Source: the human T2T-CHM13v2.0 reference genome, Homo sapiens. Taken from it: 64,000 nt of DNA. How positions within the stretch are numbered: the stretch's first letter is position 1; every line of letters begins with the position of its first letter. The notes under the pieces were generated by a model. It saw only the letters and a program-made list of their open reading frames with translations, had not been told where the DNA came from and did no database searches. The DNA lies in assembly GCF_009914755.1 (NCBI RefSeq), contig NC_060941.1; one strand, given 5' to 3'. The position numbers were made by a program, and so were the translations under genes. Positions 2,938-55,552 of the stretch are shown here, in pieces.

Positions 2938-2994
2938 ATGACAATCCGATACCAAGGCCGGCAGTACAGGCTGAGGATGGCATTTCTCCAAAAG
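2938..2994 (+). CDS. Paralogous RGS9 first exon (MTIRYQGRQYRLRMAFLQK), candidate alternative exon 1
   Basis: 54/57 nt identical to exon 1; ATG with G at -3; intact phase-0 donor AAG|GTAACC. Usage is inferred, not shown. Confidence 0.65.
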
Positions 2995-3727
2995 GTAACC
3001 CTGGCCCCTTACCTGGGCCCTGGAGTGCCGGGGACCACATCTGGGAAGCGTCCGAGGACACGTGGGGCAGGAGTGGAGGGCACCCCTTTGGGTCGATTTG
3101 TGCAGCTCGATTTCATTAAGTGACTGGTGTGAGTTGTGATAAAGACAATTCCGTTTAGGTTTCCAAGCTGCGTCCTGGGCCTGGAGACTGAGACAGAGAT
3201 CCACGGACTGCAGTGCAGGCAGCCCACCCCAGCTCCGAGTCATATAAGGTAACCCAGACAACCACCTACGAATTTAAAGCTCCTATAAGTTGCCCTTTCT
3301 GCATCCGAAGTGTGATATTTGAAAGTTAAAAACGTTATCTTACATACATAGATCTTAAAACGTATCTTACACCACAACCTACTCACAGATGCAAAGGCAG
3401 TGGTCATGGTCTTCCATTGCTTGGGGTCCTGGGGCCGGGTTTGAGGCTGAATGTCAGGGTTTCCTTTGCCATAACCTCATTCTGCACCACGTGCTGTCAG
3501 CCAGGCAGCCAATGTGGACTTGGAGGCTGGCATCTGCTGGGCACTGCTCGAGGTACCAGGGACACAGTGATGAGCAAAACGAGCATGGCCCCTGCCCTCA
3601 AAGTCCCTTGAGGCTAAATGGCCCACCCAAGGGCAGCTTAACAGTGCCCAGCCTTGGGGGATGTGGGCTGATGGAGGACTGGGCCCACCACAAGGTACCT
3701 TAGGGTGCCCCCAGTCAAATATATCTA

Positions 3728-4026
3728 CTTTTTTTTTTTTTTTTTGAGACAGTCTCACTCTCTTGTCCAGGCTGGAGTGCAGTGGTGCAATCTTGGCTCT
3801 CTGCAACCTCCACCTCCCAGGTTCAAGCGATTCTCCTGTCTCAGCCTCCCGAGTAGCTGGGATTACAGGTGCGCACCATCACACCTGGCTAATTTTTATA
3901 TTTTTAGTAGAGGCGGGGTTTCACTATGTTGGCCAGGCTGATCTCGAACTCCTGACCTCAAGTGATCAGCCCCCTTCGGCCTCCCAAAGTGCTGGGATTA
4001 CAGGCATGAGTCACTGCGCCCGGCCA
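3728..4026 (-). mobile_element. Alu (S-like)
   Basis: Poly(T) followed by antisense Alu consensus. Confidence 0.95.
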
Positions 4027-4625
4027 AATACATCTTTCTAGAGGAGCCAAGCTCCCTCAGCCAGCCAATGGCAGAGCTGCAGGTGAATGGCATCAGATGG
4101 TGTCGACATCCCACCCAACATCAGGGACTTCCACTGTAAGTGCCCGAGCCTCTCTGCTCAGGGGGTTTTCTCTGGCCATAGGAACATGACTGCCACACAT
4201 GTGGCCAGAGTGCCAGGGAGTGGATGCCCCCTGGATCAGCCTGCAACTGATAGTGAAAGACAGTTGCTTGATGAAAAGTACCAAGCTTCCTCCCCACCGG
4301 GTATGGCTCTTCTGAGGGTGTTCTATGTTGTTTCTCCCAGAGGCTCCCAGTAGGACAGAACTCAGGTGGCCCACGGGGGTTGCTGCTCATGAATGAGCCC
4401 TGTATTGTCCACCTTACTTACCCTGTCCCACCTCCCCAGGCACCAGCCGCTTTCAGGAGTCAATCTTCCCACCCATGCGACAGGCTAGTTCAATTATTAT
4501 CTCCGTTTTACAGGTAAGGAAACTGAGGCTGGTAAGGGCTAACACTAGAAGAATTGTTGACATGATACAGAAAAGCTGGTCTCACTACAATTGTAGAAAC
4601 ATAATTATTTATTTTATTATTATTA

Positions 4626-4943
4626 TTATTTGAGACAAAGTCTGGCTCTGTTGGCCAGGCTGGAGTGCAGTGGCGTGATTTCGGCTCACTGCAGCCTTGA
4701 CCTCCTGGGCTCCAGTGATCCTCCCTTCTCAGCCTCCCAAGTAGCTGGGACTACAGGCAGGCACTACCATGCCTGGCTAATTTTTTTTGTTTTTTTTTTT
4801 TTATAGAGATTTTTTTGTATTTTTAATAGAGATGGGATTTTGCCCTGTTGCCCAGGCTGGCCTCAAACTCCTGAACTCATGTGATCTGCCTGCCTCGGCC
4901 TCCCAAAGTGCTGCGATTACAGGCATGAGTCACTGTGCCCAGC
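4626..4943 (-). mobile_element. Alu (J-like)
   Basis: Antisense Alu consensus. Confidence 0.9.
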
Positions 4944-52375: not shown

Positions 52376-53394
52376 GCTGGGTGCAGTGGCTTATGCCTGT
52401 AATCCCAGCACTTTGGGAGGCTGAAGCGGGTGGATCATTTGAGGTCAGGAGTTCGAGACCAGCCTGGCCAACATGGTAAAACCCTGTTTCTACTAAAAAT
52501 ACAAAAATTAGCTGGGCGTGGTGGCGGGCACCTGTAATCCCAGCTACTTGGGAGGCTGAGGCAAGAGAATCATTTGAACTCGGGAGGCGGAGATTGCAGT
52601 GAGCTGAGATCATGCCACTGCACTCCAGCCTGAGCAACAGAGAGAAACTCAGTCTAAAAAAATAAAAATAAAAATAAACCTAGGAGGAGTCCTTCTCTCC
52701 TGCCCAGCTCTAGGCACTGCTGTGTTCACATGACACCATAGACTCACCCTTGTCATTGCATGTTCTGCATTGTCCTAGAATATCTTTGCACTGGTCAGTT
52801 AGATCTTTGGGCTCAGGGACCACAGCTTCTCTCTGGTTTCCCAGAGTTGATCATGACTGTGCCTGGATGTCGAATGACCAGCTGACCATTGGCAAGCACA
52901 TCTGGGGCAGGGGGAGTGGACAGCTTTCCCGTTAGTGAGGGCTTTTCCAGGGGAACATGAAGTTTGAAACCTCTGCACATGAAGCTTTGTCAAGATCAGT
53001 AGCAAACAGCGAATAACAAGAGAAACACCTGGGTTTTCTCTAGTCATCTTTGTTGACTAGTGTCAAACATCCAGTTTGTTTAAAAAAAAATCCTTCACGC
53101 CAGGTGTGGTGGCTCATGCCTATAATGCCAGCACTTTGGGAGGCTGAGGCAGGTGGATCACTTGAGGTCAGGAGTTTGAGACCAGCGTGGCCAACATGGC
53201 AAAACCCTGTCTCTACTAAAAATACAAAAATTGACTGAGCATGGTGTCATGTGTCTGTAATCCCAGCTACTCGGGAGGCCGAGGTAGGACAATTGCTTGA
53301 GCCCAGGAAGTGGCGGTTGCAGTGAGCCAAGATCGTGCCACTGCATTCCAGCCTGGGCGACAGAGGAAGACCTGTCCCCAAAAAAAAAAAAAAA
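52376..53394 (+). mobile_element. Two sense Alus (52376-52678, 53099-53394)
   Basis: Sense consensus with poly(A) tails. Confidence 0.92.
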
Positions 53395-54569
53395 GTCCTT
53401 CAGCTGATATTATTTCCATTTGATTTTTTCAAGTGGGAAATAATTTTTAATAATAAAAATGAAAAAAACAACTCTAAAGATAGTCAGGGCTGTCCCTGTG
53501 GCTGCCTTCCTGCAGTGCAGGCTTCCTTGGACAGTTTGTTGATTCTCTTTAGCTTCAACTCTCCCTGACATTCATGGCTCTAATTCATATCTCTGACCCT
53601 GTCTCTTCTGAACCTGGGGCAGTCATTTCCAATCACCTCCCAGACATTGTGGGAATCTCAGAAGCCCCTTACAGTCGACCTTCCAAGGCAGACACCTTTG
53701 CTTCCAGAAGTGGCTTCTTCTTTGCATTTTCTAGTTTGGTAACTGGTAACTCTGGTCTTATAAGTTATAAACCTTGGCATTATTCTGTGTCACCCTTAGT
53801 GAACCTTTCAATCACTTGCAAATGCAGTTTATTTTCGCTCTTCCAGGGCTCTGAAAGTCATGCCTCCTTACCATCTTCCTGGCCACTGCCTCATTTATTT
53901 ATTAATTCACACATCACTTGCTTACTGGGTACTATCTATGTGGCAGGCATGCTTCCTGACACTTGACATCCAGCAGCAAACAACAACAGAAAAAGACCCC
54001 CAGGAAGAGCTTGCTTTCCAGGAGCTAGGGGAGATGCACCACCGACAATGTATTAACTAGGTCAATTATTTTGTATGTTTGAAGACCACACATGCTCTTG
54101 AGAAACGGAGCAGGGCGTCAGGAGTGCCAAGGGTGGAGTTCAGGGTTGCAGCTTTAGGAATGGTCAGGGTGGGCCTCCTGAGACCATCAGAAGGGGAAGA
54201 AGGTGAGGAGGGAGCCAAGTTGGTCTCTTGCGAAGACTGGCCCAGGTAGAGGGAAGAGCCAGAACATGGGACCCGCCCAAGGCTGGCTGGGAGTGTCCTT
54301 GGTATGGCTGGGGGAAGGAAGGTGGCCAGTGTGGCTGGATCAGAGGGAGCCGGTGGGGAGTGGGTAAGAAAGAAGTCAGAGAGGAAGGAGGTCCCGAACA
54401 TGTAGACCAGTAGGGGAACTTTATCATTTACTTGGAGTCAAGTGGTCCTTGCAGTGGAACAGCCACGCAGAAGAGTGACATATTCTAAAATAATGGAAAG
54501 CCCATCTGGCTGCTCTGCTGAGAATACAAAGAGTGGGAGTGTTAAGGGTTGAAACGCTGTCATTTCTTT

Positions 54570-54860
54570 TCTTTTTTAAAAAGAGACAGGGTCTCGCTCT
54601 GTCACCCAGGCTGAGTGCAGTGGTGCGATCATAGCTCACTGTAGCCTGGAACTCCTGGGCTCAAGTGATCCTCCTGCCTCAGCCTCCCAAGCAGCTGGGA
54701 ACTACAGGCATGTACCACCACGCCCAGATAATTTTTAAGTTTTTCGTAGAGGCAGGGTCTCACTATGTTGCCCAGGCAGGTCAGAAACTCCTGGGTTTAA
54801 GCGATCCTCCCGCCTCTGCCTCCCAGATTTTGGGATTACAGGCGTGAGCCACTGTGCCTG
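54570..54860 (-). mobile_element. Alu (J-like)
   Basis: Antisense consensus. Confidence 0.9.
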
Positions 54861-55455
54861 GTCACTGTCGTTTCTCACCTGGGCTGTATGCAATAGCTTT
54901 GAATAGGTCACTGCACTTTTTTCTACCTCTGCAAACTTCTTCACACTTCAGTGTTCTTCTCTCTGTCATGGGCCAAATTTCCAGAACGCTCTCTAGGAAC
55001 AGTCACTGGAATAAAATCCACACTGCAGGGGTGGCTTTGAGGTCCATGTGGTCTGGCCTCCACTGGCTTTTCCAGCTGCAACTCCTGCTGTTTTCTGTTC
55101 CACTAACCCTGGGAGCTGTCATCCTTCCATGCCTTTGCCCATGGTGTTCTATCACTTTCTGTTCAGCAAAATCCTTTCTTGTTAAGCTCCATCTTTCCTT
55201 AAAAGCCACCCCAGAATCTCCCAGTCAGGATGAATCTGCGAGTCTTCACATGCAGGGATGGGATCTGTGTCTGTGGAGCACACCTTAGTCCTGGTTGCAT
55301 TAGAGTCACTCAGTGCCCACCTGGCTCCTGTACCAGATGGGGAACCCCTGTGTCCACCTTTGCATTTTGAGGTCCCTCTCAGTGCAGTGGAAATTGCCCT
55401 GCACAACTTTCAAAATTGTTCTCGTCAGTCGGCTTTTTCCTGTTCTGTCTTGCAG

Positions 55456-55552
55456 ATTGAAGCGCTCGTGAAGGACATGCAGAACCCAGAGACAGGGGTC
55501 CGAATGCAGAACCAGAGGGTCCTGGTCACCAGCGTTCCTCATGCCATGACAG
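55456..55552 (+). CDS. RGS9: RGS9 coding exon 2 ([33 protein letters not shown])
   Basis: Acceptor tctgtcttgcag, donor G|GTGATG; 97 nt; in frame with exon 1; start of DEP region. Confidence 0.97.

What the first reader, a model, noticed from the sequence alone, without database searches (positions are those of the whole stretch)
2938..55552. Upstream exon-1 copy is splice-competent and in frame with true exon 2: candidate RGS9 isoform with H5Y, Q8R, P12L N-terminus
Seen: exon 1 copy 2938-2994 has an ATG, 19 open codons and the same phase-0 AAG|GTAACC donor. Splicing 2994 to 55456 gives [27 protein letters not shown]..., a full-length RGS9 from a different promoter. All three nucleotide differences are nonsynonymous. 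Established: RGS9 has retinal (RGS9-1) and striatal (RGS9-2) forms that differ at the C-terminus. Inference: a second 5' promoter could add an independent tissue-control layer. I recall gene models extending RGS9 this far upstream but cannot verify that here.
Basis: partly seen in the sequence, partly recalled or inferred. Interest (0 to 1): 0.85.

Follow-up and report, generated by a model that had tools for sequence, protein, structure and literature searches.

The report
Old partial RGS9 duplicate, now lncRNA
The upstream "exon 1 copy" is real, but it is the first exon of an already annotated non-coding RNA gene that began as an old partial duplicate of the start of RGS9, and nothing seen here shows that it makes an RGS9 protein.

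Summary
The sequence facts hold: ATG at 2938, 19 open codons, donor AAG|GTAACC at 2994/2995 and phase-0 fit to RGS9 exon 2 at 55456. The three differences give H5Y, Q8R and P12L.

The copy is not isolated. It is exon 1 of the curated lncRNA LOC100507002 (NR_110801.1, published as LUESCC). That gene is a decayed partial tandem duplicate of the RGS9 5' end: promoter, exon 1, intron 1 and exon 2.

- Six colinear blocks link 2536-12743 to 39121-55525.
- The old blocks have K2P about 0.32. The promoter/exon 1 block 2609-3125 has 0.057 with sharp edges, which fits a later gene conversion.
- The copy's own exon 2 paralogue (12675-12770) has a 1-nt deletion, a stop and GT>GC at the donor. It is the lncRNA's last exon.
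- In NR_110801 the ATG opens only a 29-codon ORF.
- The three coding changes lie at residues that a non-human orthologue keeps, and they accrued at the flank rate, so no coding constraint is seen.

RefSeq has no RGS9 model from this promoter. No named-source protein of about 35-392 aa carries this N-terminus. The 2994-to-55456 junction could not be tested. Ordinary, with a modest new twist.

The parts
2509..2582 (+). (CTC/TCC)n tract just upstream of the high-identity block. Its counterpart lies at 39122-39186.
   Evidence: weak match 2463-2545 to 39100-39186
2609..3125 (+). High-identity paralogous block: CpG-island promoter, exon 1 and the first 131 nt of the intron. It matches 39188-39706 and is the likely gene-conversion tract.
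   Evidence: 28 mismatches in 514 aligned columns plus 8 gap columns, K2P 0.057. Identity steps at about 2600 and about 3125. 41 CpGs in each copy, CpG o/e 0.70 and 0.68.
2633..2664 (-). First exon of one of the three Gnomon models of the divergent lncRNA LOC105371864 (XR_007087972.1), inside the duplicated block.
   Evidence: Annotation. The CAG|GTGAGA donor is kept at the homologous place in the RGS9 promoter.
2764..2994 (+). Exon 1 of lncRNA LOC100507002 / LUESCC (NR_110801.1), paralogue of RGS9 exon 1 (39344-39571).
   Evidence: papers
2938..2994 (+). ATG plus 19 codons, the copy of the RGS9 exon 1 coding part with H5Y, Q8R and P12L. It holds the first ATG of the lncRNA.
2995..3000 (+). 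5' splice donor GTAACC, identical to the RGS9 exon 1 donor at 39572-39577.
3159..3248 (+). lncRNA exon 2, with an in-frame TGA at 3189-3191 that ends the ORF after 19 + 10 codons.
5310..5602 (+). Two old paralogous intron blocks: 5310-5458 to 42943-43086 and 5555-5602 to 43152-43199.
6904..7053 (+). Old paralogous intron block, matching 46226-46377.
8430..9014 (+). Old paralogous intron block, matching 49005-49557 at 72% identity. It occurs only at these two places in the genome.
12675..12770 (+). Decayed paralogue of RGS9 exon 2. It keeps the homologous acceptor, has a 1-nt deletion after 12703 and a TAA at 12765-12767, and GC replaces the donor GT at 12771-12772.
12675..13054 (+). Terminal exon 3 of the lncRNA. 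ATTAAA lies at 13025 and AATAAA at 13049.
39344..39571 (+). True RGS9 exon 1 (coding 39515-39571).
55456..55552 (+). True RGS9 exon 2, the acceptor proposed for the chimeric isoform.

Best explanation
The upstream copy is exon 1 of the annotated lncRNA gene LOC100507002 (LUESCC, NR_110801.1). That gene is what remains of an old tandem duplication of the 5' end of RGS9: promoter, exon 1, intron 1 and exon 2.

Most of the duplicate has drifted to about 72-75% identity, and its exon 2 is broken. A block of about 0.52 kb (CpG-island promoter, exon 1 and 131 nt of intron) was later made alike again. Interlocus gene conversion is the most likely cause (inferred). That is why the start codon, the 19 codons and the donor look intact.

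The promoter fires and the donor is used (shown by curated annotation and papers). In the recorded RNA the donor pairs with local acceptors: 3159, then 12675, which is the paralogue of the RGS9 exon 2 acceptor. The RNA is polyadenylated near 13054, so the ATG opens only a 29-codon ORF.

A read-through RNA joining 2994 to 55456 is structurally possible. It would encode full-length RGS9 with three N-terminal changes. If it exists it is most likely a minor by-product and not a selected isoform (inferred).
For: Duplicate:
- 6 colinear, same-strand matches link 2536-12743 to 39121-55525. These are 6 of 7 matches and 6 of 13 in the wider. The other 7 are scattered and lie outside the chain.
- The 585-bp block 8430-9014 has only 2 places in the genome, and the exon 1 block also has only 2.
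- Nothing upstream of RGS9 matched exon 3 or anything beyond it.

Decay:
- Pooled old blocks have K2P 0.32 (247 mismatches in 974 columns).
- The exon 2 paralogue has 32 mismatches in 96 columns, a 1-nt deletion, a TAA and GT>GC at the donor.

Conversion:
- K2P is 0.057 in 2609-3125.
- Divergence is similar in promoter (7/155), 5'UTR (8/171), coding part (3/57) and intron (10/131).
- Identity steps from about 0.6 to 0.9 or more near 2600, and from 0.9 or more to about 0.5 near 3125.

lncRNA:
- NR_110801.1 is BestRefSeq with exons 2764-2994, 3159-3248 and 12675-13054.
- The first ATG of the transcript is 2938 and its ORF is 29 codons.
- The LUESCC paper states a lack of coding potential by CPAT and ribosome profiling (passage read).

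No coding constraint:
- The PDB chain 2pbi_A differs from human in exon 2 (31/32) and exon 4 (33/35), yet it is 19/19 with true exon 1 and 16/19 with the copy.
- There are 3 changes per 45.3 non-synonymous sites and 0 per 11.7 synonymous sites. The chance that all three are non-synonymous under neutrality is 0.50.
Against: - The junction 2994-55456 was not tested, so a real chimeric mRNA is not excluded.
- I recall, and no call shows, that GENCODE/GeneCards give RGS9 the hg38 start 65,100,812. One search shows this is the start of RP11-160O5.1. That would mean some Ensembl transcript ties this promoter to RGS9.
- The acceptor at 3159 has a poor pyrimidine tract, while 55456 has a strong one, so skipping 3159 is plausible.
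- Three substitutions are too few to exclude weak constraint.
- Gene conversion against purifying selection on two CpG-island promoters cannot be settled without other species. Both copies keep 41 CpGs, which also fits selection for promoter function.
- The protein searches could not reach proteins longer than 392 aa, which is where full-length RGS9 (484-674 aa) lies.
Confidence: 0.72

Rival explanations
1. One reading: the upstream copy is a true alternative promoter and first exon of RGS9. It splices 2994 to 55456 and gives a working full-length RGS9 with Y5, R8 and L12 under separate tissue control.
For: The promoter is active and the donor is used (papers). The donor is identical and the frame fits. 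There is no upstream ATG in the 174-nt leader. The acceptor at 55456 is strong and the local acceptor at 3159 is weak. By recall only, the GENCODE RGS9 span starts at the lncRNA start; the number itself is confirmed as the RP11-160O5.1 start.
Against: All 3 RefSeq RGS9 mRNAs start at 39344. The recorded RNA from this promoter ends at 13054 and stops translation at 3189-3191. The three changes fall on residues conserved in a non-human orthologue and accrued at the neutral rate. No named protein of about 35-392 aa has this N-terminus. No paper in the library links LUESCC or NR_110801 with RGS9.
Confidence: 0.15
2. The 0.52-kb block is alike in both copies because both promoters have been under strong purifying selection since the old duplication, not because of gene conversion.
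For: Both copies keep CpG-island character: 41 CpGs each, o/e 0.70 and 0.68. Both drive annotated transcripts from homologous start sites. Both overlap RefSeq 'silent region' elements 8860 and 8861.
Against: Divergence is much the same in promoter, leader, coding part and intron. The 131 intronic bases are also kept (10 mismatches). Identity falls within a few tens of bases at both edges. The coding part changed only at protein-altering sites, which is not what selection on a coding exon gives.
Confidence: 0.25
3. The ATG at 2938 is used on the lncRNA itself, and the 29-codon ORF (19 RGS9-like codons plus 10 codons from exon 2) yields a micropeptide.
For: It is the first ATG of the transcript, with a purine at -3 and a 174-nt leader free of ATG. 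The RNA is reported to be mainly cytoplasmic (abstract and passages).
Against: The LUESCC paper reports no coding potential by CPAT and ribosome profiling. Its Fig. S2 is supplementary and I could not see it. There is no sign of constraint on the 19 codons.
Confidence: 0.1

Closest known systems
lncRNA LUESCC / LOC100507002 / RP11-160O5.1 (NR_110801.1)
   Same: It is the same DNA. The copy is this gene's exon 1, and the donor at 2994 is its first splice donor (papers).
   Different: The papers treat it as an unrelated intergenic lncRNA acting as a microRNA sponge. 'RGS9' occurs 0 times in each of the three papers checked. Its origin as a partial RGS9 duplicate appears in no paper found.
RGS9-1 (retinal) and RGS9-2 (striatal) isoforms
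   Same: Same gene. The proposed isoform would share exons 2 onward with them.
   Different: The known forms differ at the 3' end. In RefSeq they are 484 aa against 671 and 674 aa, and all three start at 39344. The proposal concerns the 5' end and has no recorded transcript in RefSeq.
Transcribed partial (duplicated, unprocessed) pseudogenes that became lncRNA genes
   Same: Colinear exon and intron homology to the parent, only the 5' part of the gene present, a broken coding exon, and its own promoter and polyadenylation site.
   Different: Here the promoter and exon 1 block is far younger-looking than the rest (K2P 0.057 against 0.32). As a result the start codon and donor remain usable.
Variable-first-exon gene arrays such as UGT1A and clustered protocadherins (recalled, not tested here)
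   Different: There the joining is documented and the first exons are long and selected. Here the exon is 19 codons, shows no constraint and has its own decayed exon 2, and the joining is unshown.
Interlocus (non-allelic) gene conversion between nearby paralogues
   Same: A short tract of about 0.5 kb of low divergence with sharp edges, inside much older paralogous sequence, between same-strand copies 36.6 kb apart.
   Different: The defining test, paralogues closer within a species than orthologues between species, could not be run.

Membership tests
Alternative promoter / alternative first exon of RGS9 | Transcription start upstream of the copy | tested here: met
   Curated NR_110801.1 starts at 2764, one base from the homologue of the RGS9 start. 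Expression is reported in papers. I ran no CAGE or read data.
Alternative promoter / alternative first exon of RGS9 | Working 5' splice donor at the end of the exon | tested here: met
   The donor at 2994/2995 is used in NR_110801.1. It is identical to the true donor over 22 + 15 nt.
Alternative promoter / alternative first exon of RGS9 | Observed junction from the exon to RGS9 exon 2 (2994 to 55456) | not testable with these tools
   Reads are off. RefSeq holds no such model: 0 of 3 RGS9 mRNAs. GENCODE is not on hand; the gene span reaching the lncRNA start is recall only.
Alternative promoter / alternative first exon of RGS9 | Reading frame kept into exon 2 | tested here: met
   57 nt make 19 codons, and exon 2 starts with a whole codon.
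Alternative promoter / alternative first exon of RGS9 | Protein with this N-terminus on record | tested here: inconclusive
   No named-source protein in the ranges 123-392 aa or about 35-108 aa shares three 5-residue words. In one search, 3 candidates of unnamed source were left out. Proteins over 392 aa could not be reached.
Partial duplicated pseudogene turned lncRNA | Colinear homology to parent exons and introns | tested here: met
   6 colinear plus-strand blocks. The 585-bp block is unique to the two places.
Partial duplicated pseudogene turned lncRNA | Disabling changes in a coding exon | tested here: met
   The exon 2 paralogue has a 1-nt deletion, a TAA at 12765-12767 and donor GT>GC.
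Partial duplicated pseudogene turned lncRNA | Rest of the parent gene absent from the copy | tested here: met
   No chain match of -20 kb to 39 kb against RGS9 beyond 55525, up to 132 kb. Repeats were masked, and only matches with E up to 1e-3 were kept.
Interlocus gene conversion tract | Tract much less diverged than flanking paralogous DNA, with sharp edges | tested here: met
   K2P 0.057 against 0.32; identity steps.
Interlocus gene conversion tract | Paralogues closer within a lineage than orthologues between lineages | not testable with these tools
   No other primate or mammal genome is on hand.

The most novel reading that the evidence does not exclude
Gene conversion keeps the decayed upstream duplicate supplied with a fresh RGS9 promoter, start codon and donor. 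In cells where LUESCC is switched on, such as squamous and colorectal tumours, part of its transcription runs past the 13-kb poly(A) site and joins 2994 to 55456. RGS9 would then have a second, differently controlled promoter and a Y5/R8/L12 protein form.
Probability: 0.15. Interest if true: 0.55.

Novelty: new member of a known kind. Interest (0 to 1): 0.3.

Why it matters
There are three practical points.

1. LUESCC, studied as a cancer lncRNA, shares 94.6% of its promoter and first exon with RGS9. The last 22 nt before the two donors are identical. Short reads, primers, siRNAs and junction counts can therefore be credited to the wrong gene.

2. The locus is a clean example of an old partial duplicate whose promoter and first exon were renewed. 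This leaves a usable start codon and donor 52 kb ahead of the parent gene's exon 2.

3. If read-through joining occurs, RGS9, a gene for retinal and striatal G-protein shut-off, could be expressed from a promoter active in epithelial tumours.

None of this changes what is known of RGS9 function today.

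Tried and rejected
- Isolated 0.6-kb duplication. My first self-comparison listed only subjects at 30-48 kb, so I first took the copy for an isolated 0.6-kb duplication. I gave this up after reading lncRNA exon 3 and re-running with repeats masked and no subject limit.

- Flank searches. One search found nothing beyond the block within the near flanks, apart from the TCC-rich tract. The old blocks lie further out.

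- Shared Alu-like repeats as a date. All 6 masked repeats in the copy interval belong to one roughly 300-bp family; 'Alu' is my name for it, since the annotation gives none. The one candidate pair by position (9247-9561 and 49594-49960) is 83% alike, no more than non-homologous pairs at 84-87%. There is no evidence for shared insertions, and the result is not decisive.

- Protein databases. Two searches with the copy's open frame were blank. A chain of searches to reach full-length RGS9 was not feasible. The longest open frame holding the exon is 224 aa, and the true exon 1 frame is closed just upstream. The third search was left unused.

- Papers.
  - 'RGS9' plus 'alternative promoter' gave 11 papers. 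I checked two by passage, and both were irrelevant.
  - 'RGS9', 'exon 1', 'duplication', 'upstream' gave 6 papers with unrelated titles. None was read.
  - The retina long-read atlas lists one novel RGS9 isoform, described as extra intron, exon elongation and alternative poly(A) site, not as a new first exon.
  - The species of 2pbi was not stated in the passages read. I recall mouse. Searches show only that it is not human.
  - Supplements were closed. These include the LUESCC coding-potential figure, the primer and siRNA table, and the retina atlas tables, and they may bear on coding potential and cross-hybridisation.

- Dates. K2P 0.32 and 0.057, divided by twice an assumed 1.0-2.2e-9 per site per year (rates recalled), give roughly 70-160 and 13-28 million years. 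These are rough figures. The old blocks are the best-kept parts, so 0.32 is a lower bound.

Full report
**Observation.** The stretch 2938-2994 begins with ATG and runs for 19 codons to AAG, followed by GTAACC. The true RGS9 exon 1 coding part, 39515-39571, has the same layout and the same donor. RGS9 exon 2 starts at 55456 with a whole codon. The copy's peptide differs from the true one at three places: H5Y, Q8R and P12L. These come from C>T at 2950, A>G at 2960 and C>T at 2972. The two junctions are identical for 22 nt on the exon side and 15 nt on the intron side. The genome holds 2 places matching the 517-bp block: the query itself, and the RGS9 exon 1 region at E = 5e-220.

**What the copy belongs to.** RefSeq places the curated (BestRefSeq) lncRNA NR_110801.1, gene LOC100507002, on it, with exons 2764-2994, 3159-3248 and 12675-13054.
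- The lncRNA start at 2764 lies one base from the homologue of the RGS9 start at 39344 (offset 36579).
- The gene is published as LUESCC, also called RP11-160O5.1. One paper gives it as hg38 chr17:65100812-65111058 (table row read).
- One paper reports it up-regulated in oesophageal squamous carcinoma, mainly cytoplasmic, and 'confirmed to lack coding potential' by CPAT and ribosome profiling (abstract and passages read, the supplementary figure not seen).
- A second paper studies it in colorectal tumours (passages).
- So the duplicated promoter is active and the 2994 donor is used, but it goes to 3159.
- In that RNA, 2938 is the first ATG. The frame runs 19 codons, then 10 codons of exon 2 (VSKLRPGPGD), and stops at TGA 3189-3191.
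- The RNA ends at 13054, 24 nt after an ATTAAA at 13025. An AATAAA lies at 13049.

**The wider anatomy.** On reading lncRNA exon 3, I saw that its acceptor and first bases resemble RGS9 exon 2. I then ran a repeat-masked blastn of 1-39000 against the window. It gave 7 matches to 39001-64000, and 6 of them form one colinear, same-strand chain:

| Copy | RGS9 |
|---|---|
| 2536-3125 | 39121-39706 |
| 5310-5458 | 42943-43086 |
| 5555-5602 | 43152-43199 |
| 6904-7053 | 46226-46377 |
| 8430-9014 | 49005-49557 |
| 12659-12743 | 55440-55525 |

- The seventh match (14441-14486, minus strand) lies outside the chain.
- I widened the search to -20 kb..39 kb against 39..132 kb. It gave 13 matches: the same 6 in the chain and 7 scattered ones, none of which extended the chain.
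- The 585-bp block 8430-9014 has only these two places in the whole genome, so it is not an interspersed repeat.
- A 161-bp query around the exon 2 paralogue found only itself in the genome-wide search. Its match to RGS9 exon 2 rests on the local blastn (E about 1e-5), on its place at the end of the chain, and on the alignment.
- The upstream locus is therefore a partial tandem duplicate of the RGS9 5' end: promoter, exon 1, intron 1 and exon 2. It spans about 10.2 kb, against 16.4 kb in RGS9.
- Its exon 2 paralogue (12675-12770) has 32 mismatches in 96 aligned columns, a 1-nt deletion after 12703, a TAA at 12765-12767, and GC where the donor GT should be.
- It begins VEISVKNMQNQ against [11 protein letters not shown] in RGS9 and then goes out of frame.

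**Two ages in one duplicate.**
- The five old blocks pooled have 247 mismatches in 974 columns, K2P 0.32.
- The block 2609-3125 has 28 mismatches in 514 columns plus 8 gap columns, K2P 0.057.
- Within that block the divergence is much the same in every part: promoter 7/155, leader 8/171, coding part 3/57 and intron 10/131.
- In 40-column windows, identity steps up from about 0.6 to 0.9 or more near 2600. It steps down from 0.9 or more to about 0.5 near 3125.
- Both copies keep 41 CpGs, with CpG o/e of 0.70 and 0.68.
- I read this as a later interlocus gene conversion of about 0.5 kb laid over an old duplicate (inferred).
- The rival is long purifying selection on two CpG-island promoters. It is not excluded and needs other species to settle.
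- With recalled rates of 1.0-2.2e-9 per site per year, the two K2P values give roughly 70-160 and 13-28 million years. These figures are rough.

**Is the copy's coding part under constraint?** The PDB chain 2pbi_A (RGS9) differs from the human sequence in exon 2 (31 of 32 identical) and in exon 4 (33 of 35), so it is a non-human orthologue. I recall mouse, but no call states the species. Even so, it is 19 of 19 identical with true human exon 1 and 16 of 19 with the copy. The three changes are therefore derived in the copy, at residues conserved between species. The counts are 3 changes per 45.3 non-synonymous sites (0.066) and 0 per 11.7 synonymous sites. Under neutrality all three would be non-synonymous half the time. 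The rate equals that of the non-coding flanks. There is no sign of protein-level selection, though three changes give little power.

**The proposed isoform.**
- For: the promoter and donor are active, the frame fits, and the 174-nt leader has no ATG. The acceptor at 55456 has a strong pyrimidine tract, and the one at 3159 is poor. True exon 1 has no acceptor, so it would simply be skipped.
- Against, or missing:
  - All 3 RefSeq RGS9 mRNAs start at 39344.
  - The recorded RNA from this promoter is polyadenylated at about 13 kb.
  - Including lncRNA exon 2 would bring in a stop.
  - There is no coding constraint.
  - Two protein searches with the copy's open frame found no named-source protein that shares three 5-residue words with the N-terminus. 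They covered candidate lengths 123-392 aa and about 35-108 aa. In one search, 3 candidates of unnamed source were set aside.
- Full-length RGS9 forms (484, 671 and 674 aa) lie outside the reach of those searches.
- Reads, CAGE and GENCODE are not on hand.
- From memory, GeneCards/GENCODE give RGS9 the hg38 span 65,100,812-65,227,703. One search shows that 65100812 is the RP11-160O5.1 start. If my recall is right, Ensembl already ties this promoter to RGS9 by some transcript. I could not see its exon chain or coding status.

**What is in print.** No paper in the library holds both 'LUESCC' and 'RGS9', or both 'NR_110801' and 'RGS9'. 'RGS9' occurs 0 times in each of the three lncRNA papers checked. 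The searches for an RGS9 alternative promoter or first exon gave nothing relevant. The origin of LUESCC as a partial RGS9 duplicate therefore seems undescribed in that library. Subscription journals and supplements were not searched.

- Junction reads need at least 23 nt on the exon 1 side to tell the two exon 1s apart.
- The Lys-C peptide MTIRYQGRQYRLRMAFLQK would also come from the lncRNA's own 29-codon ORF. On its own it would not prove an RGS9 chimera.

**Verdict.** The best-supported reading is an annotated lncRNA born from an old partial RGS9 duplicate, with a renewed promoter and exon 1. The chimeric RGS9 form is an untested and probably minor possibility. I rate the novelty as a new member of a known kind, and the interest as low to moderate.

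Noticed in passing
window 3243-3255: The donor of lncRNA exon 2 (3248/3249) reads AAG|GTAACC, the same nine bases as the exon 1 donors at 2994 and 39571, and the next base (C) also agrees. This could be chance at a donor consensus or a small local repeat.
   Followed up: partly
window 2633-2664 (-) and 39212-39243 (-): In one of its three Gnomon models (XR_007087972.1), the first exon of the divergent lncRNA LOC105371864 lies inside the duplicated block. Its CAG|GTGAGA donor is kept at the homologous place in the true RGS9 promoter, where no divergent transcript is annotated.
   Followed up: partly
window 2531-2860 and 39034-39533: RefSeq functional elements 'silent region_8860' and 'silent region_8861' (silencers) sit on the two paralogous promoter copies. 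Cross-mapping between the copies could affect such calls.
   Followed up: no
window 2509-2582 and 39122-39186: Both copies carry a TCC/CTC-rich tract just upstream of the high-identity block. The true copy also has a 22-bp unit repeated 2.8 times at 97% matches.
   Followed up: partly
window 18720-21458 and 24577-25640: Another Gnomon lncRNA (LOC124907955) and H3K27ac hESC enhancer elements lie between the duplicate and RGS9. They showed no homology to RGS9 in the masked comparison.
   Followed up: no
RGS9 gene, retina (paper PMC11450717): A retina long-read atlas lists a novel RGS9 isoform with an extra intron, exon elongation and an alternative poly(A) site. It is unrelated to the upstream exon.
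   Followed up: partly
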